Origin: Candidatus Kaiserbacteria bacterium CG10_big_fil_rev_8_21_14_0_10_47_16 | Lineage (GTDB): Bacteria > Patescibacteriota > Minisyncoccia > Phycocordibacterales > UBA918 | DNA: 64,000 bases | Assembly: GCA_002773395.1 (NCBI GenBank) | Contig: PFBI01000006.1 | Location: 12,049-76,048, forward strand | Reading direction: 5' to 3' | Shown: in pieces, positions 3,948 through 45,988 of the stretch | Layout of the letters: every line of letters starts with the position of its first letter | Numbering within the stretch: position 1 is the stretch's first letter | Notes under the pieces: generated by a model | Database searches by the model: none | What the model was told of the DNA's origin: nothing | The model's input: the letters and a program-made list of their open reading frames with translations, nothing else | Position numbers and translations under genes: made by a program

Positions 3948-5705
3948 ATGAGTGAACAGATTTCTAACATTGAGAAAAAGCGTCATACACTCGCCCACCT
4001 TTTGGCGGCAGCGGTTTTGAAAGACTATCCGCACGCACTTCTCACGATCGGTCCTGCTATCGAGAATGGTTTCTATTACGATATTGATTTTTCTGCGGGC
4101 GCAGCGCCCGGAGACGACGATCTAAAAAGTATCCAAAAAAACATGAAGAAGCTGCTCTCTTCATGGAAGGAATTTACACACAAGGAAGTATCTGCTGCTG
4201 ATGCGCGTGAAGTATTTGCAGGAAATGACTTCAAGATTGAACTCATCAATGAGCTTGAGGAAAAAGGAGAAACAATCACACTTTATACGGTAGGCGACTT
4301 TACTGACCTTTGCCGAGGAGGACATTCGGAAACTCCGGCAACTGATATTGATGCCGATGCATTTAAACTCACCTCAATTGCGGGTGCATACTGGCGTGGG
4401 AGCGAAAAGAATCCAATGCTTACCCGTATCTACGGCGTCGCATTTGATACAAAGGAAGAACTTGCTGCGTACGAAACACAGCTTGAAGAAGCGAAGAAGC
4501 GTGATCATAAGAAGCTTGGAGGTGAACTTGGACTCTTTACTATTTCGCCGCTTATTGGCGCCGGCCTCCCACTCCTTCAACCAAAGGGTGCACTCATCCG
4601 TCGTGAGATTGAAGAGTATCTATGGGATCTACATAAAGATAAAGAATACGACCGCGTATGGACACCACATATTGCCCGAGAGGCGCTCTATGAGACAAGT
4701 GGTCACGCAGCTAAATTTGGTGACGAGCTTTTCCGTGTGAAAGGCAAAGAAGATGAGTTTATCCTCAAGCCAATGAACTGTCCGCATCACATGCAGATTT
4801 TTGCAGACAATCAATTCTCATATCGTGATATGCCGATACGATATTTTGAACCTGCCACCGTATACCGCGATGAAAAGAGCGGCCAGTTGGGAGGTCTTAC
4901 TCGCGTACGCGCTATTACACAAGATGATGGACACCTCTTCTGTCGTGTAGAACAAATTACCGAGGAAGTTTCAACGATCGTTGGTATCATTCGTGAGTTT
5001 TACGCGACGATGGGTATGCTTGAGGGTTACCATGTACAGCTTTCGGTACGTGATGGAGAAGATAAGTATTTAGGAAGTGACGCAGTATGGGAACGTGCTG
5101 AAAAGGCACTTGATGATGCTGCAAAGGCAAATAATCTTAACTATACGCGTGTTGAGGGCGAGGCGGCATTCTATGGACCAAAGCTTGACTTCATGTTCAC
5201 TGATGCAATCGGACGAGAGTGGCAACTTGCAACCATTCAGTGTGACTTCAATCTTCCTGAACGATTCAACCTTTCTTTTATTAATGAGAAAGGTGAAAAA
5301 GAGCAGCCAGTGGTTATCCACCGTGCAATCTCAGGTTCACTCGAGCGCTTTATGGGGGTCATGATTGAACATTTTGCAGGCAACTTCCCACTCTGGCTTT
5401 CACCGGAACAAATCACTATTATCCCTGTTTCTGATGCTCATAATGAGTACGCACAGCAGGTATACGATGGCCTCAAGGCTGTTGGTATCCGTGTATCATT
5501 CGATGATTCTAAAGAATCAATGGGTAAGAAGATACGGAATGCAAAGAAAGGTAAACTCCCCTACTTTGCAGTTATTGGAGATAAGGAAGTTGAAAATAAA
5601 ACAGTGACTCTTGAATCACGAAATGGTGAATCAAAAGAAATGACAACGTCAGAACTCGGTAACCATTTGCTTACTGAAATTGAAATGAAGGCATTGCCGA
5701 AGTAA
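3948..5705 (+). CDS. thrS: threonine--tRNA ligase (short form lacking the N-terminal TGS domain)
   Basis: HTLAHLLAAAV...GPAIENGFYYDIDF (editing domain), class II motifs, HRAISGSLERFMGVMIEHFAGNFPLWLSP. Confidence 0.9.
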   Translation: MSEQISNIEKKRHTLAHLLAAAVLKDYPHALLTIGPAIENGFYYDIDFSAGAAPGDDDLKSIQKNMKKLLSSWKEFTHKEVSAADAREVFAGNDFKIELINELEEKGETITLYTVGDFTDLCRGGHSETPATDIDADAFKLTSIAGAYWRGSEKNPMLTRIYGVAFDTKEELAAYETQLEEAKKRDHKKLGGELGLFTISPLIGAGLPLLQPKGALIRREIEEYLWDLHKDKEYDRVWTPHIAREALYETSGHAAKFGDELFRVKGKEDEFILKPMNCPHHMQIFADNQFSYRDMPIRYFEPATVYRDEKSGQLGGLTRVRAITQDDGHLFCRVEQITEEVSTIVGIIREFYATMGMLEGYHVQLSVRDGEDKYLGSDAVWERAEKALDDAAKANNLNYTRVEGEAAFYGPKLDFMFTDAIGREWQLATIQCDFNLPERFNLSFINEKGEKEQPVVIHRAISGSLERFMGVMIEHFAGNFPLWLSPEQITIIPVSDAHNEYAQQVYDGLKAVGIRVSFDDSKESMGKKIRNAKKGKLPYFAVIGDKEVENKTVTLESRNGESKEMTTSELGNHLLTEIEMKALPK

Positions 5706-5815: not shown

Positions 5816-8800
5816 TTACGCTGTGAGAAGTGCTGCGAGGCGCTCTTTGTTGATTACCATCCAACCGTTTTCAGTTGGGAACATTGCCTTTGCCTTCGTG
5901 ATCACATGATCAAGCATGGTAAGACGTTGTTCAAGTGGTGCATCCTGATCAGCGACGTAACTGAGTGCGTCGGCTGAAAGAAGTACACGTGATGCATGTG
6001 CTCGATTTTCAATTGTCGATGCAGCATCCGCTACTTCTTCTTGCACCATTACCGGTGCTCCGGTAATCGGTTCTACTGCTGCAATCGGAAGATTAAACGG
6101 AATACTTGAGTCGGCCGTCACTTCAGAAGCAACCGTTGATGTGGCGACAGGGGTTGGAATATGCTGCGCTGCAGATACTCCTTTCCCTGCTGTTGCAAAA
6201 CGTCCTTTCTTCACTACGAAGAAGTATGCGATACCGACTCCCCATAGAGCGAGGAGTGCATAGAATACTGAGGTAAGGAATGGTCCTGCATCGAATCCTG
6301 TGTATGGCACACGTACGAGCTGTACGCCGGCCACGAGTGGATCCTGTGTTCGAACGGTTGTAACAACAACATTGTTATCATCATCAACACGTACCTCTAC
6401 ACGACAGGTGTCAGTGTCACCTTTCTTTCCGTACGCAGTAAGCGTATATTCAGTATCTTCGTCTGGTCGGACAGAAATACTGTCACGTTCAGGATCTTCG
6501 TTGTCTCCATTGTCGGTATCAACGAGAGTCTTTCCATGATCGTCACGAAGACGGATGTCCTCAGTGTCGTCATTGTCCCAACTGAGCGTAATACGATCGC
6601 CGTCGTTAATACGATCATCAGAGACTTCGAGATCACATCGTACGTTACCAGAATCCTTTACATTAACTGATGTTGAACAAGTCACGCTATCAGTATTGTT
6701 TGAAGCGGTAAGGCGGTATGTCTTATTGTCGTACGCGTAGAGTGTTACGGATCCATCTTGAGCAACGAGTCCAAGACCGTTGTCAATAGAAACGCGCGTT
6801 GCATCAGTTGTGTTCCATCGGAGTTCAAAGGAATCTCCCTCATCAACACTTGAAGGTGTTGCTGTAAAGTAATCACATGAGAGATTACTTTGCGGTGGGG
6901 TATCCTGCACGTTTACCGATGTTGAACACGTTACGGTATTCGTATTATTTGATGCAGTGAGTACGTATGTCTTACTGGCAGTACCGGTAAGGGTAACTGA
7001 ACCGTCAGCTGCAACGAGTCCAATACCATTGTTGATTGATACAGAGTTTGCATCAGTTGTGTTCCAGATAAGTTGGAATTGATTACCCTGTTGTACAGTC
7101 GATGGTGATGTGTAGAACTGGTCACAACTGAGTGAACTTTGTGGTGGCGTATTCTTAATCTTTACTGATGTTGAACATGATACCGTTCCCGTACTATTGG
7201 TTGCAGTAAGGGTGTAGGTCGTATCGTGATTTACTGCAAGAGATACTGATCCGTCCTGTGGGACGAGTCCTGTTCCTTGGTTGATTGAAACTTGCGTTGC
7301 GCCGGTTGTATTCCATGAAAGTTGGAATGCCTCACCTGCTTCAACGAAGCTTGGACTTGCTTGGAAGAAATCACATGAGAGTGGATTTTCAACTGGAATA
7401 TCTTGCACCTTTACGCTTGTTGTACATGAAACAATGCTTGACGCATTTGAGGCAGTAAGTACAAACGAGGTGTTCTTGGTTACGGTAAGCGCGATAGAAC
7501 CGTCCTTAGGAACAAGTCCAACACCGTTGTTAACAGTCACCTGTGTTGCCCCAGTTGTACCCCACGTAAGTTGGAAGGCTTCGCCAGAACCAACAGTACC
7601 AGGATTCGCTTGGAAGAAGTCACATGAAATCGGATTTTCCTCTGGGATGTCCTGTACTTTTATATTCGTCACACATGACACAATACTCGAACTGTTTGAA
7701 GCGGTGAGTACGAACGATGTATCGTTCGTCACGGTAAGAGCGATTGATCCATCTTGTGGCACAAGTCCGACACCATTATTGATGTTTACTTGTGTTGCAC
7801 CAGTCGTCCCCCACGTAAGTTGGAAGGCTTCGCCTTTCTTTACGATATTTGGATTCGCCTGAAAGAAATCACAAGAAATCGGTTCGTCTACAACTACCGT
7901 TTCAACTTTCACATTTGTCGTACATGACACGATGCTTGAGCTGTTTGACGCAGTGAGTACAAATGAAGTGTCTTGATTGACGGTAAGTGCAACCGATCCG
8001 TCCTGTGGTACAAGACCGATACCATTATTAATGGTTACCTGTGTACCACCAGTTGTACCCCACGTAAGTTGGAATGCCTCACCTTTCTTTACAATACTCG
8101 GGTTTGCTTGGAAGAAGTCACACGAGAGTGGGTTCTCGACAGGAATGTCTTGTACGTGCACGGTCGATGTACACGATACGATACTCGAAGCATTAGATGC
8201 GGTAAGCACGTACGTTTTGTCAGCTTGCACGGTAAGTGCAACCGATCCATCTGCTGGTACAAGACCAACACCGTTGTTGATGTTTACCTGTGTCGCTCCG
8301 GTCGTTGCCCACGTAAGTTGGAATGCTTCACCCTTTCCTACTGTTGAAGGATTCGCTTGGAAGAAATCACATGAGAGTGGATTTTCCTCTGGAATATCTT
8401 CTACATGTACCGTTGTCGTACACGACACAATACTTGAAGCATTTGATGCCGTAAGGATAAATGACTTATCAGCTTGCACTGAAAGTGCCACCGATCCGTT
8501 TTTCGGTACAAGACCAACACCGTTATTGATGTTTACCTGCGTCGCTCCGGTTGTTGCCCACGTAAGTTGGAATGCCTCACCTTTGCCTACAGTGCTTGGG
8601 TTTGCTTGGAAGAAGTCACATGAAAGTGGAGTTTCTACAGGAATATCCTGCACCTTCACATTTGTGGCACACGAAACCGTTCCCGTGCTATTCGATGCGG
8701 TAAGGATAAAGGACGTATCTTGATTTACAGAAAGCGCTGCCGAACCATTCTTTGGAACGAGGCCTACGCCGTTATTGATTGATACTGTGGTAGCACCTGT

Positions 8801-9673
8801 TGTGCCCCATGTAAGTTGAAATGCTTCACCTTTCTTCACGATACTTGGACTTGCTTGGAAGAAGTCACATGAAAGTGGTGTTTGCTGTGGTGGCTGTTGG
8901 TTTACATTGATCTGTACCGTACACGTATCACTGCCTCCTTGTCCGTATGCAGTAAGGGTGTATGACTGTGAGTGATCAACGTATACGCTACTTGAACCGT
9001 TCTTTGGAACAAGTCCGAGTCCTGGATTAATAGATACTGAAGTTGCGTATGAAGTTCCCCATGTAAGTGTTACGTTTGCGCCGCCAGCGGGAACTGTTGT
9101 GTTACTTGCAGTAAAGAAGTCACAGTATGCGGGCTGTGGAGTGTAGTGGTAGTCGTTGTAGTACGTGTAGTCGTAATAGGTGTAGTCGTTGTATGTGTAG
9201 TAGTCGTAGTAATCGTAATAGTCGTAGTTGTAGTATTGGTAGTCGGTGTAGTAGTAGTCGGTGTAACCGTAGTCGTATGAATAGTCGTTGTACCCGTAAT
9301 CATACGAGTAATCGTTATACCCGTAATCGTAGGAATAATCATCGTAGCCACCACAGCCATAACAGCTGTCGCCACCGACGTACCCGCCATTTCCATAATT
9401 ATACGAGTAGTCGTTATACCCGTAATCATACGAATAGTCGTTGTACCCGTAGTCGTATGAGTAGTCATAGTATCCTCCACAGCTGTAACAGCTGTCGCCA
9501 CCGACGTAGCCACCCCCATAGTCATAGGAATAGTCATCGTAGTATTGAGCCTCTGCTGTTGCAGGGACGAGCGTAAGATCATCAGTGATCTGTGATACTG
9601 AGACAAGACCAAACGCAAAAACAGCAGTCGCGAAGACTCCCGTAAGGATTGAGATTTTAATAATAGTGTTCAT
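5816..9673 (-). CDS. giant cell-surface repeat protein: signal peptide, Tyr/Asp/Gly-rich low-complexity region, eleven ~83-aa Cys-bracketed Ig-like tandem repeats, VPYTG motif + TM helix + KKGR, then a ~130-aa C-terminal tail
   Basis: The ORF is open from 9829, but the real start is probably MNTIIKISILTGVFATAVFAFGLVSV (ATG at 9673), since the Tat-protein terminator lies upstream. The repeat consensus is PLSCDFFQANPS.V.KGEAFQLTW.TTGATQV.INNGVGLVP.DGS.AL.V..D.SF.LTASN.SSIVSC.T.V.V.DIP.EN. Confidence 0.85.
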   Translation of the reverse strand: MNTIIKISILTGVFATAVFAFGLVSVSQITDDLTLVPATAEAQYYDDYSYDYGGGYVGGDSCYSCGGYYDYSYDYGYNDYSYDYGYNDYSYNYGNGGYVGGDSCYGCGGYDDYSYDYGYNDYSYDYGYNDYSYDYGYTDYYYTDYQYYNYDYYDYYDYYTYNDYTYYDYTYYNDYHYTPQPAYCDFFTASNTTVPAGGANVTLTWGTSYATSVSINPGLGLVPKNGSSSVYVDHSQSYTLTAYGQGGSDTCTVQINVNQQPPQQTPLSCDFFQASPSIVKKGEAFQLTWGTTGATTVSINNGVGLVPKNGSAALSVNQDTSFILTASNSTGTVSCATNVKVQDIPVETPLSCDFFQANPSTVGKGEAFQLTWATTGATQVNINNGVGLVPKNGSVALSVQADKSFILTASNASSIVSCTTTVHVEDIPEENPLSCDFFQANPSTVGKGEAFQLTWATTGATQVNINNGVGLVPADGSVALTVQADKTYVLTASNASSIVSCTSTVHVQDIPVENPLSCDFFQANPSIVKKGEAFQLTWGTTGGTQVTINNGIGLVPQDGSVALTVNQDTSFVLTASNSSSIVSCTTNVKVETVVVDEPISCDFFQANPNIVKKGEAFQLTWGTTGATQVNINNGVGLVPQDGSIALTVTNDTSFVLTASNSSSIVSCVTNIKVQDIPEENPISCDFFQANPGTVGSGEAFQLTWGTTGATQVTVNNGVGLVPKDGSIALTVTKNTSFVLTASNASSIVSCTTSVKVQDIPVENPLSCDFFQASPSFVEAGEAFQLSWNTTGATQVSINQGTGLVPQDGSVSLAVNHDTTYTLTATNSTGTVSCSTSVKIKNTPPQSSLSCDQFYTSPSTVQQGNQFQLIWNTTDANSVSINNGIGLVAADGSVTLTGTASKTYVLTASNNTNTVTCSTSVNVQDTPPQSNLSCDYFTATPSSVDEGDSFELRWNTTDATRVSIDNGLGLVAQDGSVTLYAYDNKTYRLTASNNTDSVTCSTSVNVKDSGNVRCDLEVSDDRINDGDRITLSWDNDDTEDIRLRDDHGKTLVDTDNGDNEDPERDSISVRPDEDTEYTLTAYGKKGDTDTCRVEVRVDDDNNVVVTTVRTQDPLVAGVQLVRVPYTGFDAGPFLTSVFYALLALWGVGIAYFFVVKKGRFATAGKGVSAAQHIPTPVATSTVASEVTADSSIPFNLPIAAVEPITGAPVMVQEEVADAASTIENRAHASRVLLSADALSYVADQDAPLEQRLTMLDHVITKAKAMFPTENGWMVINKERLAALLTA
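6335..9124 (-). repeat. tandem array of ~249-bp coding repeats (eleven 83-aa domains); the central units are near-identical at the DNA level
   Basis: Repeats 3-7 encode almost identical peptides. The antisense and alternate-frame ORFs at 7281-7862, 7977-8723 and 7973-8347 show the same periodicity. Confidence 0.85.
9125..9544 (-). repeat. low-complexity coding DNA for a Tyr/Asp/Gly/Ser/Asn-rich segment (YDYSYDYGYNDYSY units, with an internal ~45-aa duplication containing CxxC pairs)
   Basis: Translation reads YYDDYSYDYGGGYVGGDSCYSCGGYYDYSYDYGYNDYSYDYGYNDYSY... The alternate-frame ORFs at 9070-9618(-) and 9127-9576(+) are composition artefacts. Confidence 0.8.
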
Positions 9674-9784: not shown

Positions 9785-9822
9785 TCTGGTGGCGCGATGC
9801 TTTCGCAACGCGCCACCAGTTA
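9785..9822 (-). terminator. intrinsic terminator after the Tat-signal gene (stem tggtggcgcg/cgcgccacca, then a T-rich run on the minus strand)
   Basis: 10-bp perfect stem, followed on the minus strand by tattttctt. It separates the three-gene cassette from the giant gene. Confidence 0.55.
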
Positions 9823-9825
9823 CCT

Positions 9826-10335
9826 TCAACAGGCATCTCCCTTGCTCGGTTCACACCGACATGGGAGAGGAGCGCCGTAGCGCGCAAAGGACCAATTGCC
9901 ACACACGAGTGGCTTTATGATCCGGTATTGAACACCCGTCTCATCGTTGACGTACCAGACGGCAGCGATGCGGGAAGCCTTGGACTTCCATTTCGACGGC
10001 ATTGCTACCGTTTCCTTGGCGACCCAATGCTTTTTGCGAGTGAAGACCATGGTGCCTACTGGGTCACCGTCACGTAGTTCATACGTGTCGTGACCCTTGG
10101 GATGGTGGGCGACTGCTGCAGATATGCGCGGACGCATATCTGCAGGGATACCCGCCAATTCCATGGCTTGGTCGAGGGTTCCCTTGAAAGGGTTCCCTCC
10201 ACCATTTGTCCAGAGGAAGGTGCCCTTGTCGAGGGTACCTACCCCCGCATGGTCATCTGCGGCAAACGCAAACCTTGGGAGGAATGCAACTGCCGCGATG
10301 CCAGCGAGAAGCTGACGTCGAGTTGGTTGCATCAC
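9826..10335 (-). CDS. secreted protein with a twin-arginine (Tat) signal peptide and C-terminal 4-Cys cluster; function unknown
   Basis: MMQPTRRQLLAGIAAVAFLPRFAFA-ADD, with RRxLL and an AxA cleavage site. SD AGGAAAGGAAAGG upstream. Local GC about 57%. Confidence 0.6.
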   Translation of the reverse strand: MMQPTRRQLLAGIAAVAFLPRFAFAADDHAGVGTLDKGTFLWTNGGGNPFKGTLDQAMELAGIPADMRPRISAAVAHHPKGHDTYELRDGDPVGTMVFTRKKHWVAKETVAMPSKWKSKASRIAAVWYVNDETGVQYRIIKPLVCGNWSFARYGAPLPCRCEPSKGDAC

Positions 10336-11258
10336 CTTTCCTTTCCTGCGTTACCGGGAACGATGGCAACAACCAAAACCGGATCTCTCTGGTTTCGGCC
10401 GCCGCCGTTCTTCACGTAGTTGTAGATGCTATCCGTGCACATAACACGTGCCTCGGCAGCCTTCTTCTGGTGCGCGATGATGTCCCAAGGGACTTGCACG
10501 CAGAGCAAGGTTTCGGAATCGATGCGCGAAGCGTCGATCTCGATCACCTCGTGCCCCTGGTTGTTACCCTTGTAGATTACGTCCTTATCCTCGCCGTTTC
10601 GGGTGAGGAAGAGGGTGACAGGTGCATTCACTACGCGAACGTCACCAGTGTTGGTGCCGTCGCGCAGATCAGGGCCGTATTCGTCAGCATTACGGTCGCC
10701 GACAATGCGGTCGACGGTCGGTGTCTGCCGAGGCAAAAATGCCCCTACAAAAGCCGACCCTTCGAGTGAGTTGCGGTCGGAGTTTGCACCGGATGGTACG
10801 AAATCCTGACGATCGTCGCTTTCGTAGTCATCACGGTAGGAGGCCGGACGAATGTCCGAACCCGACCGTCTAACGGCGACTGTGCGGCGTTCAACCTGAA
10901 CGCCGCTACCGGCACCGTAGTAGCCGGACCGCTGCTGACGACCGTAGTTTTGGCCACGGTCATAGCGTCGTTCGGTCACGATGCCGTTTTGGCTGAGAAC
11001 AGCCTGACGACACCATTCACGGGGATTACCCCGCGAGCGGTCACGTCGAGCGCGATACTCACAGTCCTCGATGGCTCGCGCCATCTGGGGAGTGATCTGT
11101 ATCGAGTCACCTTCACGGTGGTAGCCGCCGGATTCAGCACGCATCTCGCGATGCATACCTCCTCCGGAACGAATAGGTTCGTACTCGGAACTCACCTGAG
11201 TACCAGCACACGCCGTGAGCAACAGTGCGCCCACGGCCAGAATCGTTACTTTTAACAT
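10332..11258 (-). CDS. lipoprotein (lipobox LLTAC) with an R/Y/G/D-rich N-terminal region; function unknown
   Basis: MLKVTILAVGALLLTAC signal II. SD AAGGAGAAG 5 nt upstream. 4-nt overlap with the downstream gene. Confidence 0.6.
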   Translation of the reverse strand: MLKVTILAVGALLLTACAGTQVSSEYEPIRSGGGMHREMRAESGGYHREGDSIQITPQMARAIEDCEYRARRDRSRGNPREWCRQAVLSQNGIVTERRYDRGQNYGRQQRSGYYGAGSGVQVERRTVAVRRSGSDIRPASYRDDYESDDRQDFVPSGANSDRNSLEGSAFVGAFLPRQTPTVDRIVGDRNADEYGPDLRDGTNTGDVRVVNAPVTLFLTRNGEDKDVIYKGNNQGHEVIEIDASRIDSETLLCVQVPWDIIAHQKKAAEARVMCTDSIYNYVKNGGGRNQRDPVLVVAIVPGNAGKER

Positions 11259-11279
11259 GGATCTTCTCCTTGAAGTTGA

Positions 11280-11825
11280 TCAGCGCCGCGGGCGCGGCTG
11301 ATGTTGCTGTTGCGGGCGCGGCTGAGGCCGTCGCTGTTGCTGCCGCCGATATTGAGGCGGTGGCGGTTGGATACGATAGTATTGTTGCTGCCGATACTGT
11401 TGGCCTCCGCCGTAGCGTTGACCATTCCCGTATTGACCGCCACCATAACCTTGTTGACCGTAACCGTACTGACCACCGCCGTAACGACGTTGACCATAAC
11501 CCTGTTGGCCGCCATGGTGGCGACCTTGGGATATTTGTCGGCCAATTCGCATCTTACAATCGTACAAGATGTCATCAAACGCTGGATGAGCATGGTGTGC
11601 GCCCTGCGTTCTTTCGTCAACGCACTGCCACACCATTGCTCTTCCGCCATCTGGATGACCTCGGCCTCGAGATTGGTTGCTGCATCCACCGAGGACGCAA
11701 GCAAACAACCACATACCACGATCGATGAGGTATATTTCTCCTCGATCAAGCTCAGCCTTTGCGGGTTGGGCTACACTCGCCATCGCAATGAAAGCGACGA
11801 CGCAGAACGCAAATAGTCGCTTCAT
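11280..11825 (-). CDS. secreted protein with a Gly/Gln/Tyr/Arg/Pro-rich low-complexity C-terminus
   Basis: Signal peptide MKRLFAFCVVAFIAMASVAQPAKA. C-terminus GYGQRRYGGGQYGYGQQGYGGGQYGNGQRYGGGQQYRQQQYY...PQYRRQQQRRPQPRPQQ. SD AAGGAG 8 nt upstream. Confidence 0.6.
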   Translation of the reverse strand: MKRLFAFCVVAFIAMASVAQPAKAELDRGEIYLIDRGMWLFACVLGGCSNQSRGRGHPDGGRAMVWQCVDERTQGAHHAHPAFDDILYDCKMRIGRQISQGRHHGGQQGYGQRRYGGGQYGYGQQGYGGGQYGNGQRYGGGQQYRQQQYYRIQPPPPQYRRQQQRRPQPRPQQQHQPRPRR

Positions 11826-12158: not shown

Positions 12159-13127
12159 TTATCGCAAAAGATCCATGATGAGATGATGAACAAGCTCTCT
12201 GTGTGAGGCTCCGACAGCGGTCATTGCCTTCGGGAAAAGTGATTCTTCAGTGAGTCCTGGCAGTGTATTTACTTCGAGAAAATAAATTCCATCATCGGCA
12301 ATCATAAAATCTGATCGAGAGTATTGCGCGAGATCAAGTGTTTCGTGGACGAGTCGTGCAATACGTTCCATCTCTTTCTTTTCGGTATGAGTAAATCGTC
12401 CCGGACACACTTCTTCTGTCTCCCCTGTGTATTTCACATCTGCAGAAAAGAAATCTGATTTTTGTGGTGGAATAATTTCAATTGCAGGAAGTGCGTACAA
12501 CTCTTCACCGCGAAAACGATTGAGTACTCCGCATGTCGCTTCTTTTCCAACAATTCTTTTTTCTACGAGAACTTGATCATAAATATTAAGAGCATCGCTG
12601 AGTGCACTTGCAAGGAGTGTTGGATTTTTTACCATCATGGTTCCAACGGATGATCCTGATGAAATTGGTTTAATAACGTACTCAGGACCAAACATGTCGG
12701 CAATACTTTCGCTCAGTCCATGCAAATTTCGTTTCGAGTCTCGCGTTACTACCATGTGTGGAGGCATCTTGAGTCCAAAATCACGTAAGTGATCCTTGGT
12801 AAGTACTTTATTCATTGCAATGCTTGATGCGTAGGAACGACTTCCAGTGAACGGGACGCCCGCGCGCTCGAGAATACGTTGTAGCTTGCCGTCTTCACCG
12901 AATGCGCCGTGGAGAGCGATAAAGACGGCGTCGACACTTTGGAGGATTTGCTCAGGATATCGTGAGACACCACGATGCAACCACTCACCTGTCTTGGTGA
13001 TGGTTATATCAAGTGGTTCAAAGAGATCTCGGCTAAGCGAGGCCAGTACTGCATCACCAGTTTTCATTGAAACTTCGTATTCTTCACTGGGGCCTCCGCG
13101 GAGTACCGCAACGCGTATCTTACTCAT
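12159..13127 (-). CDS. ddl: D-alanine--D-alanine ligase
   Basis: IRVAVLRGGPSEEYEVS...ALHGAFGEDGKLQRILERAGVPFTGS...; ATP-grasp fold, 322 aa. Confidence 0.9.
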   Translation of the reverse strand: MSKIRVAVLRGGPSEEYEVSMKTGDAVLASLSRDLFEPLDITITKTGEWLHRGVSRYPEQILQSVDAVFIALHGAFGEDGKLQRILERAGVPFTGSRSYASSIAMNKVLTKDHLRDFGLKMPPHMVVTRDSKRNLHGLSESIADMFGPEYVIKPISSGSSVGTMMVKNPTLLASALSDALNIYDQVLVEKRIVGKEATCGVLNRFRGEELYALPAIEIIPPQKSDFFSADVKYTGETEEVCPGRFTHTEKKEMERIARLVHETLDLAQYSRSDFMIADDGIYFLEVNTLPGLTEESLFPKAMTAVGASHRELVHHLIMDLLR

Positions 13128-44331: not shown

Positions 44332-45153
44332 CTACAGACTCCCAAAAAAGATTGCTGCCACAACAACTCCCGCAAGAATAATGCGGTACCACACAAACGG
44401 CCACAGCGTGTGTTTTCGTACAAAGCCAATCATAAAGTGAATAGCGAAGAGTCCGACAATAAAGGCTGTTGCAGCTCCTACCGCGACAAGTGGCCACGAG
44501 ATATCCGCATTGAGAGCAAGGAGATCAAGGAGTTTCTTTGCTCCTGCACCAAGAAGTACTGGTATACCAAGCAAGAATGCAAAACGAGTTGATTCACTAC
44601 GCGTAAGTCCGAGAATCATACCTCCAGAAATTGCTGATCCTGAACGTGACATACCTGGAATGAGGGCGAGCGTTTGGAAGAATCCAATCTTAATCGCCAT
44701 AGACACTGTCATGACAGTAGATGGTACGGGTGGTTTTTTTAGATATCGATATTCCGCAAACATAAAGAGTCCTGATCCCACTACAAGAACTCCGGCGACG
44801 AGGAGCGGATTTCGAAACACGGTCTCCATCATTTTTTCAAGGAGAAGTCCGAAGATAACCGCAGGAATTGTTCCGATAATTAACGCCTTGAGGAGCGTTA
44901 CATTCTTTTGATCAACCGGCTGTCTTCCGAGTACGCGGAGAAATGTTTGGAACAGCACCCAAATCTCACTATAAAAATACACAATAATCGCTGCAACAGT
45001 CGCGAGGTGGAGGATTGCATCGAACGCGAGTGCGTTCGCATCTTCACTCCCAAGAAGATTCCCAAAGAGAATCAAGTGTCCCGTAGACGAAACGGGCAAA
45101 AACTCAGTAAGTCCTTGTACGAGTCCGAGAATAATAACTGAAAAGAGATCCAT
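44332..45153 (-). CDS. uppP: undecaprenyl-diphosphate phosphatase
   Basis: VQGLTEFLPVSSTGHLIL; 8-TM BacA pattern. Confidence 0.9.
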   Translation of the reverse strand: MDLFSVIILGLVQGLTEFLPVSSTGHLILFGNLLGSEDANALAFDAILHLATVAAIIVYFYSEIWVLFQTFLRVLGRQPVDQKNVTLLKALIIGTIPAVIFGLLLEKMMETVFRNPLLVAGVLVVGSGLFMFAEYRYLKKPPVPSTVMTVSMAIKIGFFQTLALIPGMSRSGSAISGGMILGLTRSESTRFAFLLGIPVLLGAGAKKLLDLLALNADISWPLVAVGAATAFIVGLFAIHFMIGFVRKHTLWPFVWYRIILAGVVVAAIFFGSL

Positions 45154-45277: not shown

Positions 45278-45988
45278 ATGGAGAAAAATCCTTTTGCCGT
45301 CCCTATCGCAATAATCATCGCTGCCGGCCTTCTTGCGGGAGCAATCTACTTCAGTGGAAAACAAAATTCTGCGAATACTGCCAATGACGGTGATTCTTCA
45401 CCGAGTGAAGAAATTACCATCCCTCCAGTGACTGAAGCGGATCACATCTTAGGAAATCCAAATGCTCCAATCATGATTGTTGAGTATTCGGATTATGATT
45501 GTCCGTTCTGTAAAAATTTCCATGAGACAATGAAAAAAATCATGGATGACTATGGAGCAGGCGGCAAGGTTGCATGGGTCTATCGCTATTTCCCACTCCA
45601 ACAACTTCACCCGAATGCGCCTGAGCTTGCAGTCTCTGCCGAATGTGTCGCGGAACTCGGAGGAAACGATGCGTTCTGGAAATTCAGTGATCTCGTCTTT
45701 AGTGAACGAGATACCAACGAACAGACCGATATGACACGCGTACCTGAGTTTGTTGCAGCAGCCGGCGTCGACACTACAGCATTCCAAGAATGTCTCGATA
45801 GTGGTCGCTACAAATCTCTCGTAGAACAGCAGTTCAATGACGCTGTTGCGGCTGGCGGACGTGGTACTCCATACCCAATCGTCGTTGTCGGGGATCAGAA
45901 AGGCACGATCCAAGGAGCACAGCCATACTCAGTAGTAAAACAAATGATTGATACCCTTATCGCACAACTCGATAACTCAGGTAACTAA
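45278..45988 (+). CDS. DsbA-like thiol:disulfide oxidoreductase, membrane-anchored
   Basis: N-terminal TM; thioredoxin-fold CPFC active site (EYSDYDCPFCKNFH). Confidence 0.75.
   Translation: MEKNPFAVPIAIIIAAGLLAGAIYFSGKQNSANTANDGDSSPSEEITIPPVTEADHILGNPNAPIMIVEYSDYDCPFCKNFHETMKKIMDDYGAGGKVAWVYRYFPLQQLHPNAPELAVSAECVAELGGNDAFWKFSDLVFSERDTNEQTDMTRVPEFVAAAGVDTTAFQECLDSGRYKSLVEQQFNDAVAAGGRGTPYPIVVVGDQKGTIQGAQPYSVVKQMIDTLIAQLDNSGN

What the first reader, a model, noticed from the sequence alone, without database searches (positions are those of the whole stretch)
5816..9673. Giant cell-surface protein with 11 near-identical tandem Ig-like repeats and an LPXTG-like VPYTG anchor followed by an atypical long tail
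The protein is about 1285 aa. It has a signal peptide, eleven ~83-aa repeats each bracketed by two Cys (PLSCDFF...VSC), and a final, strongly acidic variant repeat (DLEVSDDRINDGDRITLSWDNDDTEDIRLRDD...). Then come VRVPYTGFDAGPF + TM + KKGR, which looks like a sortase/exosortase-type sorting signal. A further ~130 aa follow, which classical sortase substrates lack. The central repeats are near-identical at the nucleotide level, which implies recent concerted evolution and a recombinational hot spot for copy-number or phase variation. Proteins like this are candidate host-attachment factors in small-genome episymbiotic bacteria.
Basis: partly seen in the sequence, partly recalled or inferred. Interest (0 to 1): 0.7.

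Follow-up and report, generated by a model that had tools for sequence, protein, structure and literature searches.

The report
Sortase-type surface protein with cytoplasmic tail
This gene from an ultra-small (CPR, Kaiserbacteria) bacterium encodes a real 1285-residue surface protein of 11 antibody-like domains. Its VPYTG membrane anchor belongs to a large, undescribed family that in relatives sits right after its own sortase gene yet, unlike any classical sortase substrate, carries a conserved folded domain inside the cell.

Summary
The gene is real: window 5816-9673, minus strand, 1285 aa, and nucleotide-identical in independent assemblies.

Anatomy, from N to C terminus:
- a signal peptide
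- a tip with 41% tyrosine
- 10 Cys-bracketed Ig-like repeats plus one acidic variant domain (not 11 + 1)
- VPYTGFDAGP
- one transmembrane helix
- KKGR
- a 127-aa tail

The claim of near-identical repeats is wrong. Repeat nucleotide identity is 56-80%, below the amino-acid identity, so there has been no recent concerted evolution.

The tail is not an artefact. The module [VIL]PYTGF[ED]AGP-TM-linker-domain defines at least 1281 protein clusters, all from Patescibacteria. The tail domain folds with pLDDT 97-98 as an AAA+-lid-like domain.

In relatives the gene lies in fixed synteny (GyrB, c4, sortase, this gene, ThrRS, DnaE). A PF04203 sortase lies upstream on the same strand in 61/61 loci, and the reciprocal test gave 23/23. 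Two loci also carry small paralogues with the same VPYTG motif in a canonical short sorting signal.

Best reading: a dedicated sortase substrate whose cleavage remnant keeps a conserved cytoplasmic domain. This is a new variant of a known kind.

Caveat: no sortase gene lies in this window or within 10 kb on either side. No cleavage has been shown.

The parts
5816..9673 (-). Complete CDS, 1285 aa plus stop codon (5816-5818).
   Evidence: ORF and translation. JGI and NCBI gene calls give the same 1285 aa. The CDS is nucleotide-identical in two other assemblies.
9548..9673 (-). N-terminal signal peptide region, aa 1-42. The hydrophobic core is aa 7-27, and there is a possible AEA|Q cleavage site.
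   Evidence: Kyte-Doolittle 19-aa window score of 2.06 at aa 7. No signal-peptide predictor was available.
9125..9547 (-). Tyr/Asp/Gly low-complexity tip, aa 43-183 (41% Y, 18% D, 14% G), with two C-x-x-C motifs. It contains a 126-bp unit duplicated at 87% identity (9282-9508).
   Evidence: Similar Tyr-rich tips occur in Kaiserbacteria homologues P0004 and P0008.
6638..9124 (-). Ten canonical Ig-like repeats (aa 184-1012), each about 83 aa and each with one Cys pair.
   Evidence: Repeat boundaries. Profile hits of 115-146 bits each. AF2 model with pLDDT 94.3, all-beta sandwich. Foldseek finds a PKD domain (1l0q, TM 0.69), titin and other I-set Ig domains.
6398..6637 (-). Acidic membrane-proximal variant Ig-like domain (aa 1013-1092, net charge -16). 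This unit is conserved across the whole family (R-C-x-L-x-x-S-D...G-[DE]-x-[IV]-T-L-x-W).
   Evidence: (23 bits to the repeat profile).
6311..6397 (-). Stalk, aa 1093-1121 (...VVVTTVRTQDPLVAGVQLVR). It corresponds to the family consensus RDQQPLVAGISLTQ.
   Evidence: Alignments.
6281..6310 (-). Sorting-type motif VPYTGFDAGP (aa 1122-1131). The pentapeptide VPYTG is at 6296-6310.
   Evidence: In 148 family members the pentapeptide is VPYTG in 107, IPYTG in 28 and LPYTG in 7. The following residues are FEAGP in 108 and FDAGP in 17. P, T, G, F, A, G, P are invariant in the 63-sequence alignment.
6212..6280 (-). Single transmembrane helix, aa 1132-1154.
   Evidence: Kyte-Doolittle score 2.22. AF2 helix at module residues 23-45, pLDDT 88-97.
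6200..6211 (-). Basic stop-transfer residues KKGR, aa 1155-1158. They place the tail in the cytoplasm by the positive-inside rule.
   Evidence: Sequence. Family consensus is [RK][RK] at this position.
6050..6199 (-). Disordered cytoplasmic linker, aa 1159-1208. It contains the nearly invariant P-x-N-L-P motif (PFNLP, 6086-6100).
   Evidence: pLDDT 55-60. P84, N86, L87 and P88 are at least 90% conserved.
5819..6049 (-). Cytoplasmic tail domain A, aa 1209-1285 (alpha-beta-alpha-alpha-beta-alpha). The fold is AAA+-lid-like.
9788..9817 (-). GC-rich hairpin between the upstream island and this gene. It looks like a terminator for the island genes, so this gene probably has its own promoter.
   Evidence: Fold energy -34.1 kcal/mol, z -7.5. 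Sequence. It was not flagged by the consensus scan, whose loop limit is 8.
9826..11825 (-). Three-ORF island with higher GC (0.554 against about 0.46), encoding secreted or lipoprotein-like proteins (169, 308 and 181 aa). It occupies the variable slot that in relatives lies between the sortase gene and the surface-protein gene.
   Evidence: (no Pfam hits).
3948..5705 (+). Threonyl-tRNA synthetase, convergent with the gene. This neighbour is conserved and marks orthology with the family.
   Evidence: ThrRS lies downstream in 72 of 78 related loci. Pfam on the JGI gene call.
45278..45988 (+). Membrane-anchored DsbA/MdbA-like thiol-disulfide oxidoreductase. It is a candidate oxidant for the 13 Cys pairs of the ectodomain; this link is inferred.
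   Evidence: Pfam Thioredoxin_4 at 3.9e-24 and DSBA at 5.7e-15. 26 Cys residues. CPR enrichment of MdbA-like enzymes is reported in PMC6744442.

Best explanation
The gene encodes a member of a large, unnamed family of surface proteins found across Paceibacteria (CPR/Patescibacteria).

Shown:
- The architecture: signal peptide, variable low-complexity tip, 3-11 Ig-like domains (11 here, the most seen), and a conserved charged membrane-proximal Ig-like domain. Then come a stalk, the motif [VIL]PYTGF[ED]AGP, one transmembrane helix, basic residues and a disordered linker with P-x-N-L-P. The last part is a folded AAA+-lid-like cytoplasmic domain, and most relatives add a second helical domain that is absent here.
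- In relatives the gene is a single syntenic gene, placed immediately downstream of and co-directional with a dedicated sortase gene that keeps its His/Cys/Arg catalytic motifs.

Inferred mechanism:
1. The precursor is exported by Sec.
2. Each Ig-like domain acquires one disulfide.
3. The C-terminal helix holds the precursor in the membrane with its tail in the cytoplasm.
4. The sortase cuts between Thr and Gly of VPYTG and joins the ectodomain to the peptidoglycan precursor.
5. A remnant of about 160 aa stays in the membrane: G-FDAGP, the helix, the linker and the lid-like domain.

The conserved tail most likely acts as a protein-protein interaction module. It could work before cleavage (targeting or quality control of the precursor) or after it (reporting surface display to the cytoplasm). 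This would enlarge the known 'C-peptide' signalling of streptococcal adhesins. In this genome the sortase gene is not next to the gene and must lie elsewhere if the scheme holds.
For: - Architecture.
- Family size: a profile of the C-terminal module finds 1281 clusters at E<=1e-3 and 400 at E<=1e-30, always at the C-terminus of long proteins.
- Motif: near-invariant across the family.
- Distribution: 162 hits in GTDB species genomes; nearly all of the 80 loci listed are titled Patescibacteria lineages or unclassified MAGs, two carry other names.
- Synteny: PheS, PheT, GyrB, c4, sortase, this gene, ThrRS, DnaE.
- The neighbour is a sortase: PF04203 at E=7.5e-16, with GHSSY, L-x-T-C and D-R-x-x-V-E-A conserved in 65 sequences.
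- Sortase upstream on the same strand in 61/61 loci with at least 1.5 kb of upstream DNA.
- Reciprocal test: 23/23 sortase-anchored metagenome loci with at least 6 kb downstream carry a PYTG motif on the same strand.
- L068 and L079 also encode small paralogues with the same membrane-proximal domain + VPYTG + TM + RRRK. These end 41-43 aa after the motif, which is a canonical sorting signal.
- Orthology of the window gene: it shares the motif, the membrane-proximal domain, domain A and the ThrRS neighbour.
- A cell wall is expected: Ddl lies at 12159-13127 (Pfam on the gene call).
- Oxidative folding is plausible: a DsbA-like enzyme is in the window.
- Sortases are common in CPR (PMC6744442). 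C-peptide signalling has a precedent (PMC11502775).
Against: - No sortase gene lies in the 64-kb window or in 10 kb on either side. A six-frame search with the sortase profile gave no hit at E<=10, and no sortase Pfam appears on the flank gene calls.
- The rest of this genome could not be read.
- The signal is not at the extreme C-terminus, which is a defining feature of classical sorting signals. It lies 164 aa from the end here and a median of 301 aa in the family.
- The five residues after the scissile bond (F-[ED]-A-G-P) are as conserved as the pentapeptide itself. That is unusual for sortase signals and could point to another role.
- No cleavage, anchoring or partner of the tail has been shown for any member.
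Confidence: 0.62

Rival explanations
1. It is an uncleaved type-I single-pass membrane protein, a receptor or adhesin with an Ig-like ectodomain and a cytoplasmic adaptor domain. PYTGFEAGP would be a structural juxtamembrane element, and the neighbouring sortase would serve other substrates.
For: - The tail is long, conserved and folded.
- F-[ED]-A-G-P after the pentapeptide is invariant.
- No sortase lies near the gene in this genome.
- The motif starts with V or I, not L.
Against: - Sortase adjacency on the same strand is found in 61/61 and 23/23 loci.
- The same motif and membrane-proximal domain occur in canonical short-tailed sorting signals in the same loci.
- No other sortase-type signal was found among the other ORFs of the 80 related loci, apart from these paralogues.
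Confidence: 0.2
2. The sortase cuts the protein, but the main purpose is not wall anchoring. Instead the cut would shed the ectodomain, polymerise it, or liberate the membrane-bound cytoplasmic fragment as the functional product.
For: - The tail is more conserved than the ectodomain. Tail identity to the window is 35-46%, while repeat number varies from 3 to 11.
- The nearest solved sortases are class D enzymes, not housekeeping class A.
Against: - No pilin-type partner genes are present, only a single substrate gene per locus.
- Two paralogues lack the tail altogether, so the ectodomain with its signal makes sense alone.
- The matches to class D sortases are weak (E=3e-4).
Confidence: 0.1
3. 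One reading: a contingency adhesin whose near-identical repeats recombine to change copy number or phase.
For: - Repeat number differs between species, from 3 to 11.
- One 126-bp duplication at 87% identity lies in the Tyr-rich tip.
Against: - Repeat nucleotide identity is 56-80% and the longest shared run is 28 nt.
- Amino-acid identity exceeds nucleotide identity, which indicates old duplications under purifying selection.
- The CDS is nucleotide-identical in independent assemblies, and five contigs encode the identical protein.
- The gene is single-copy in a conserved housekeeping neighbourhood.
Confidence: 0.04
4. The tail or the repeat array is an assembly or frameshift artefact.
For: - One JGI contig (L082) ends inside the repeat array.
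- The NCBI annotation of one MAG starts the gene late, giving 1007 aa.
Against: - The exact 1285-aa product is found on 5 contigs of 0.2-1 Mb. The CDS is nucleotide-identical in JGI Ga0210043_1000005 and NCBI JAACWM010000001.1.
- The tail is conserved in more than 1000 clusters and folds confidently.
Confidence: 0.01

Closest known systems
Classical LPXTG cell-wall-anchored proteins and their sortases (e.g. staphylococcal and streptococcal MSCRAMM or repeat adhesins with sortase A)
   Same: - N-terminal signal peptide and tandem Ig-like domains.
- A pentapeptide with P, T and G in the canonical positions, then a hydrophobic helix and basic residues.
- A sortase (PF04203) with the His/Cys/Arg motifs encoded next to the gene in relatives.
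   Different: - Position 1 of the motif is V or I and position 3 is a fixed Tyr.
- Five further residues (F-[ED]-A-G-P) are invariant.
- The signal is followed by 127 aa here, and about 270 aa in most relatives, of conserved cytoplasmic sequence with a folded domain.
- The host lineage is CPR/Patescibacteria.
- No biochemical evidence exists.
Class D sortases with dedicated substrates (solved examples 2ln7 and 4d70)
   Same: - They are the nearest solved sortase sequences to the family's sortase.
- They follow the same logic of a dedicated enzyme-substrate gene pair.
   Different: - The match is only weak (E=3e-4 and 1.7e-3, partial coverage).
- The CPR enzyme has its own strongly conserved motifs (VRHPDSA, GHSSYLP, NKNFQAFNG, LATCNSFG).
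- It forms at least 1317 clusters of its own.
- Class assignment was not tested by phylogeny.
C-peptide signalling by sortase A substrates in Streptococcus gordonii (as cited in PMC11502775)
   Same: The membrane remnant left after sortase cleavage has a function of its own, which offers a conceptual precedent for a functional remnant.
   Different: The streptococcal remnant is about 30 aa and acts within the membrane on a histidine kinase. Here the remnant would be about 160-300 aa with one or two folded cytoplasmic domains. No partner is known.
PKD/Ig-like repeat proteins of other bacteria (for example OmpA-family proteins of Acidobacteria that carry PF22352 and PF18911)
   Same: The ~80-aa repeat is homologous by sequence, with E down to 1e-27 for whole proteins. 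It has the same beta-sandwich fold.
   Different: - Those proteins lack the Cys pair, the VPYTG module and the tail.
- The window repeats do not reach any Pfam threshold.
Stand-alone AAA+-lid-like domains (N-terminal domains of the B subunits of DNA polymerases epsilon and alpha; Lon alpha subdomain)
   Different: There is no detectable sequence similarity (9-13% identity). The context is quite different: the cytoplasmic end of a bacterial surface protein. Common descent is not shown.
Exosortase/archaeosortase signals (PEP-CTERM, PGF-CTERM and relatives)
   Same: A short motif, a transmembrane helix and basic residues near the C-terminus of a surface protein.
   Different: The motif does not match any of those signals (my own knowledge of the motifs). 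The enzyme encoded next to the gene in relatives is a sortase, not an exosortase. Those signals also end the protein.

Membership tests
Sortase substrate (cell wall sorting signal) | N-terminal secretion signal | tested here: met
   A basic N-terminus and a hydrophobic core at aa 7-27, Kyte-Doolittle 2.06. No dedicated predictor was run.
Sortase substrate (cell wall sorting signal) | LPXTG-type pentapeptide | tested here: met
   VPYTG has P, T and G in the canonical positions. Position 1 is V/I/L across the family. This is a variant of the consensus, not the consensus itself.
Sortase substrate (cell wall sorting signal) | Hydrophobic segment and then basic residues directly after the motif | tested here: met
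   The helix at aa 1132-1154 is followed by KKGR.
Sortase substrate (cell wall sorting signal) | The signal ends the protein, with only a short charged tail after the helix | tested here: not met
   127 aa follow KKGR. The family median is 301 aa from the motif to the end. Two small paralogues in L068 and L079 do meet this feature.
Sortase substrate (cell wall sorting signal) | A cognate sortase encoded in the same genome | tested here: inconclusive
   None was found in the window or in 10 kb on each side, and the rest of the genome could not be read. In relatives a sortase is adjacent in 61/61 loci.
Sortase substrate (cell wall sorting signal) | Cleavage between T and G and linkage to peptidoglycan | not testable with these tools
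   This needs biochemistry or proteomics.
Unnamed Paceibacteria family (VPYTGF[ED]AGP-TM-tail surface proteins) | Motif [VIL]PYTGF[ED]AGP immediately before a single C-terminal helix | tested here: met
   VPYTGFDAGP.
Unnamed Paceibacteria family (VPYTGF[ED]AGP-TM-tail surface proteins) | Conserved charged membrane-proximal Ig-like domain and stalk | tested here: met
   RCDLEVSDDRINDGDRITLSWD...TEYTLTAYGKKGDTDTCRVEV aligns with the family unit. The poly-Gly linker that usually precedes this domain is absent here.
Unnamed Paceibacteria family (VPYTGF[ED]AGP-TM-tail surface proteins) | Cytoplasmic linker with P-x-N-L-P, and domain A (ENRAH...LLS.DA...AKA.[FY]P.E.GW..[IL]N.ER) | tested here: met
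   PFNLP and IENRAHASRVLLSADA...AKAMFPTENGWMVINKER.
Unnamed Paceibacteria family (VPYTGF[ED]AGP-TM-tail surface proteins) | Second C-terminal helical domain (domain B) | tested here: not met
   The window protein ends after domain A, as do 7 of the other 14 sequences in alignment A1 (P0003, P0004, P0005, P0008 among them). It is a short-tail subform.
Unnamed Paceibacteria family (VPYTGF[ED]AGP-TM-tail surface proteins) | Synteny: sortase upstream, convergent ThrRS downstream | tested here: inconclusive
   The ThrRS neighbour is kept. The sortase, c4 and GyrB side is replaced by Ddl and UvrCAB beyond the island.
Ig-like / PKD-like beta-sandwich | Fold | tested here: met
   AF2 pLDDT 94.3 with eight strands. 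TM 0.69 to the PKD domain of 1l0q, and 0.6-0.76 to I-set Ig domains, though Foldseek E is only about 2e-3.
Pfam PKD / Big / I-set families | Sequence match above the curated threshold | tested here: not met
   Only sub-threshold, repeat-inflated hits with no significant single stretch.
Exosortase/archaeosortase substrates | PEP, PGF or a related motif, and a cognate exosortase | tested here: not met
   The motif is PYTG, and the neighbouring enzyme in relatives is PF04203 sortase.
AAA+ ATPase lid domain | Lid fold attached to a P-loop ATPase core | tested here: not met
   The fold matches, but no ATPase core is present. The domain follows a disordered linker.

The most novel reading that the evidence does not exclude
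One gene yields two working proteins through sortase cleavage. The first is a wall-linked Ig-like ectodomain. The second is a membrane-tethered cytoplasmic adaptor (an AAA+-lid-like domain, plus a second domain in most relatives) that couples surface display to a cytoplasmic process. The locus is fixed between GyrB and DnaE/RNase HII, and the tail fold resembles lids of DnaA, Hda, clamp loaders and polymerase B subunits. That process could therefore be replication or division control in these ultra-small cells. This would be a previously unknown mode of sortase-dependent transmembrane signalling, specific to CPR bacteria.
Probability: 0.2. Interest if true: 0.85.

Novelty: new variant of a known kind. 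Interest (0 to 1): 0.66.

Why it matters
Sortase substrates are defined by a sorting signal that ends the protein. Here a lineage-wide family (at least 1281 clusters at 50% identity) pairs a dedicated sortase with a substrate that carries conserved, folded cytoplasmic domains beyond that signal.

If cleavage occurs, the 'waste' remnant is a conserved protein in its own right. That would extend C-peptide signalling from a curiosity to a built-in design.

CPR/Patescibacteria are mostly uncultured, and their cell envelopes are poorly known. This family is probably a major conserved surface component of Paceibacteria.

The hypothesis is directly testable: a defined enzyme, a defined 10-residue motif and a small soluble tail domain can all be produced recombinantly. 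The work also corrects a truncated public annotation (1007 aa against 1285 aa).

Tried and rejected
- **Pfam and NCBIfam on the whole protein and the tail.** They gave only repeat-inflated sub-threshold hits (RDR6_2nd, HZS_alpha and others, none with a significant stretch) and chance hits. I rejected these as annotation.
- **Word-indexed homologue search with the 15-sequence tail alignment.** It returned nothing, probably because low-complexity linkers swamped the word index. I replaced it with the exhaustive profile search.
- **Looking for this genome's sortase.**
  - Pfam on 10 membrane or secreted ORFs of the window found none.
  - A six-frame profile search of the window and of the 10-kb flanks found none.
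  - A homologue search with a sortase query gave 1317 clusters, but none of the 120 listed could be traced to this genome.
  - A metagenome scan found a sortase on another contig of the same sample (L131). That contig has its own surface-protein and ThrRS genes, so it belongs to a different organism.
- **A universal N-terminal C-x-x-C-G-G motif.** Only 29 of 110 complete members have it, so I dropped it as a family feature.
- **An apparent exception to sortase adjacency (L077).** This was an artefact of my ORF picker. The sortase is there, at 313 bits.
- **Exosortase/archaeosortase reading.** Rejected, because the motif and the neighbouring enzyme do not fit.
- **Sequence search of the tail against PDB.** It gave nothing meaningful.
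- **Literature.** No paper mentions a PYTG sorting motif. Papers on CPR sortases do not describe this family.

Full report

The minus strand of the window carries one long ORF. From the ATG at 9673 to the stop at 5816-5818 it gives 1285 aa. JGI and NCBI gene callers call the same 1285-aa product on other assemblies.

The exact protein is on five contigs of 0.2-1 Mb. The 3858-nt CDS is nucleotide-identical in JGI contig Ga0210043_1000005 and in NCBI JAACWM010000001.1. The gene, its repeat number and its tail are therefore not assembly or frameshift artefacts.

One public annotation (COU16_01530, Candidatus Kaiserbacteria, 100% identical) starts the gene late and gives only 1007 aa.

**2. Anatomy**

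- Only two segments are strongly hydrophobic: aa 7-25 and aa 1136-1154.
- After the signal region comes a 141-aa tip with 41% Tyr, 18% Asp and 14% Gly, and two C-x-x-C motifs.
- Ten canonical repeats of 80-85 aa follow, each with one Cys pair, and then one acidic variant (net charge -16). That makes 11 domains, not 11 + 1.
- Then come a stalk, VPYTGFDAGP (aa 1122-1131), a 23-aa helix, KKGR and 127 more residues.

**3. The repeats are not near-identical**

- Among repeats 2-9, nucleotide identity is 56-80% and amino-acid identity is 48-89%.
- 30-64% of codons for conserved residues differ.
- The longest shared exact run is 28 nt.
- Tandem Repeats Finder gives 73% matches.

Protein identity above DNA identity means old duplications kept by purifying selection, not recent concerted evolution. 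The only recent duplication is a 126-bp unit in the Tyr-rich tip (87% matches).

**4. The repeat fold**

No Pfam or NCBIfam model reaches threshold. With a 76-sequence alignment of repeats, AlphaFold2 gives an eight-strand sandwich at pLDDT 94.3.

The best solved matches are the PKD domain of an archaeal S-layer protein (TM 0.69) and I-set Ig domains, with weak E-values of about 2e-3. The repeat is thus a generic Ig-like/PKD-like domain. Homologous repeats occur in many unrelated bacterial surface proteins.

**5. The tail is the key to the family**

Every close homologue shares the C-terminal module. A profile of that module was searched exhaustively against 1.84 billion representatives. It finds 1281 clusters at E<=1e-3 and 400 at E<=1e-30, always at the C-terminus of long proteins.

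In 148 members with the motif, the pentapeptide is VPYTG in 107, IPYTG in 28 and LPYTG in 7. It is followed by FEAGP in 108 and FDAGP in 17.

The following parts are conserved:
- the membrane-proximal charged Ig-like domain and the stalk
- the helix and the basic residues
- a linker motif, P-x-N-L-P
- a roughly 75-aa domain A

The number of Ig-like repeats varies from 1 to 11; 3 to 8 is usual, and the window protein has the most. Most members carry a second helical domain B, which the window protein lacks.

**6. Tail structure**

With a 63-sequence alignment, AlphaFold2 predicts three parts:
- the transmembrane helix, at pLDDT 88-97
- a disordered linker, at pLDDT 55-60
- a compact alpha-beta-alpha-alpha-beta-alpha domain, at pLDDT 96-98

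No ATPase core is present and there is no sequence similarity. KKGR after the helix places this domain in the cytoplasm. This placement is inferred from the positive-inside rule.

**7. Genomic context in relatives**

A scan of one genome per GTDB species for PYTGF[ED]AGP found 162 relatives. Nearly all of the 80 loci kept carry Patescibacteria titles (Paceibacteria, Kaiserbacteria, Nomurabacteria and similar) or are unclassified; two carry other names, probably mislabelled bins.

Clustering the ORFs of these loci shows one fixed neighbourhood: PheS, PheT, GyrB, c4 (divergent), a 231-aa protein, the surface-protein gene, ThrRS (convergent), DnaE, RNase HII.

- The 231-aa protein is a sortase: PF04203 at E=7.5e-16, above threshold. 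GHSSY, L-x-T-C and D-R-x-x-V-E-A are conserved in 65 sequences.
- It lies upstream on the same strand in all 61 loci with at least 1.5 kb of upstream DNA. The one apparent exception, L077, was an artefact of my ORF picker.
- The reverse test was run from sortase matches in metagenomes. It gave a PYTG motif downstream on the same strand in 23 of 23 loci with enough sequence.
- The nearest solved sortases are class D enzymes, but only weakly (E=3e-4).

**8. Independent support for the motif as a sortase signal**

L068 and L079 encode, just downstream, a small paralogue. It has these parts:
- a signal peptide
- a Gly/Pro-rich spacer
- the same membrane-proximal domain
- VPYTG[IF]
- a helix
- RRRK
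- the end of the protein, 41-43 aa after the motif

That is a canonical sorting signal using the same motif next to the same enzyme. Apart from these paralogues, no other ORF in the 80 loci or in the window carries such a signal.

**9. What differs in this genome**

The ThrRS neighbour is kept. A three-ORF island with higher GC (9826-11825) sits directly upstream, in the slot where 32 of 63 relatives carry variable secreted or lipoprotein genes.

Beyond the island come Ddl and UvrC/A/B instead of the sortase, c4 and GyrB. A six-frame search with the sortase profile finds nothing in the window or in 10 kb on either side. I could not read the rest of the genome, so whether this organism has the enzyme remains open.

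A strong hairpin (-34.1 kcal/mol, z -7.5) separates the island from the gene. This suggests that the gene has its own promoter.

**10. Most likely mechanism**

Shown: the architecture, the family-wide conservation, the sortase pairing in relatives, and the folded tail.

Inferred:
1. The precursor is exported by Sec.
2. One disulfide forms per Ig-like domain. There are 26 Cys, and a DsbA/MdbA-like enzyme lies at 45278-45988.
3. The helix holds the precursor in the membrane.
4. The sortase cleaves after Thr1125 and transfers the ectodomain to peptidoglycan.
5. A membrane remnant persists whose cytoplasmic lid-like domain binds a partner.

Sortases and MdbA-like oxidoreductases are enriched in CPR (PMC6744442). 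A functional cleavage remnant has a precedent in the streptococcal C-peptide (PMC11502775).

The main rival is an uncleaved type-I membrane protein. The long tail, the invariant F-[ED]-A-G-P and the missing local sortase favour that rival. The synteny and the short-tailed paralogues argue against it.

**11. Comparison and novelty**

The protein works like an LPXTG-type sortase substrate. It fails one defining feature of that class, because the signal does not end the protein.

The tail, the motif and the family have no Pfam, NCBIfam or PDB counterpart. I found no paper describing them. I rate it a new variant of a known kind.

The ideas of concerted evolution and phase variation are not supported.

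**12. Limits**

- No experiment exists for any member of the family.
- All assemblies are from short reads.
- The sortase class was not resolved.
- Domain B was not modelled.
- The sortase of this particular genome was not located.

Noticed in passing
window 9826-11825 (-): A three-ORF island with GC 0.554 against about 0.46 for the window. The ORFs are 169 aa (Tat-like signal), 308 aa (lipobox LLLTAC) and 181 aa (signal peptide plus a Gly/Gln/Arg-rich region), with no Pfam hits. In 32 of 63 related loci the same slot, between the sortase and the surface-protein gene, holds 1-5 unrelated secreted or lipoprotein ORFs. Their GC is above the locus mean in about 28 of 32 cases. The window's 169-aa ORF is 29% identical (E=4e-13) to the ORF in that slot in L077. 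This looks like a hypervariable, possibly horizontally acquired cassette site.
   Followed up: partly
window 9788-9817 (-): A perfect 9-bp GC-rich stem extends to an 11-pair hairpin (-34.1 kcal/mol, z -7.5). It lies 8 nt after the stop of the island's last ORF and about 115 nt before the surface-protein ATG. It is terminator-like but has an interrupted T-run. The consensus scan missed it because the loop is longer than 8.
   Followed up: partly
window 9125-9547 (-), aa 43-183: An extraordinarily Tyr-rich tip (41% Tyr; YSYDYGYNDY units) with two C-x-x-C motifs. A 126-bp unit is duplicated at 87% nucleotide identity (9282-9508). Kaiserbacteria homologues have similar Tyr-rich tips, while other family members have Gly/Asp-rich tips. 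The function is unknown; it may be an adhesive or cross-linking surface.
   Followed up: partly
window 5816-9673 compared with public annotation COU16_01530: The NCBI record for the same protein starts at an internal GTG in repeat 2. It gives 1007 aa and lacks the signal peptide, the Tyr-rich tip and the first repeat. JGI and another NCBI assembly call 1285 aa.
   Followed up: yes
L068 12096-13163 (+) and L079 10520-11596 (+): Small paralogues (355 and 358 aa) lie downstream of the main gene. Each has a signal peptide, a Gly-rich region with a (PPVV)n spacer, and the conserved membrane-proximal domain. They end with VPYTG[IF], a helix, RRRK and a short tail, which is a canonical sortase signal with the family motif.
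   Followed up: yes
related loci L001-L080, gene c4 (e.g. L050 5494-6549, -): A conserved protein of about 350 aa with an N-terminal helix and beta-rich domains is encoded divergently from the sortase in 58 loci. It has no Pfam hit. It is absent from the window and may be a further component of the system.
   Followed up: no
family tails (e.g. P0010, P0015, L077 surface protein): Most family members carry a second C-terminal helical domain (SLAEAIVTGN..AAY.M.GNRPMFALADAA.DLD.VYRARKG...ALDG.Y.DE..AVK.AI.KA.K), which is absent from the window protein. A different, shorter tail type ending in MV[IF].RS..G..P...I.R occurs in P0022 and P0026.
   Followed up: partly
window 45278-45988 (+) and 44332-45153 (-): A membrane-anchored DsbA/MdbA-like thioredoxin-fold protein lies next to an ORF at 44332-45153 (-) that I read by eye as undecaprenyl-diphosphatase-like (no tool was run on it). 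This is relevant to oxidative folding of the 13 Cys pairs of the surface protein.
   Followed up: partly
window 1-64000 compared with related loci: Apart from the ThrRS-surface protein pair, the conserved Paceibacteria gene order (PheST, GyrB, c4, sortase ... DnaE, RNase HII, L32, Rnc) is broken on both sides in this genome. MiaA and an OMP-decarboxylase-like gene lie on one side; Ddl and UvrC/A/B lie on the other.
   Followed up: partly
L131 (JGI Ga0210043_1000013, same sample as the window's contig): A second Paceibacteria organism in the same sample carries the canonical PheT, GyrB, c4, sortase, 1160-aa long-tail surface protein and ThrRS arrangement. Both locus types therefore coexist in one community.
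   Followed up: yes
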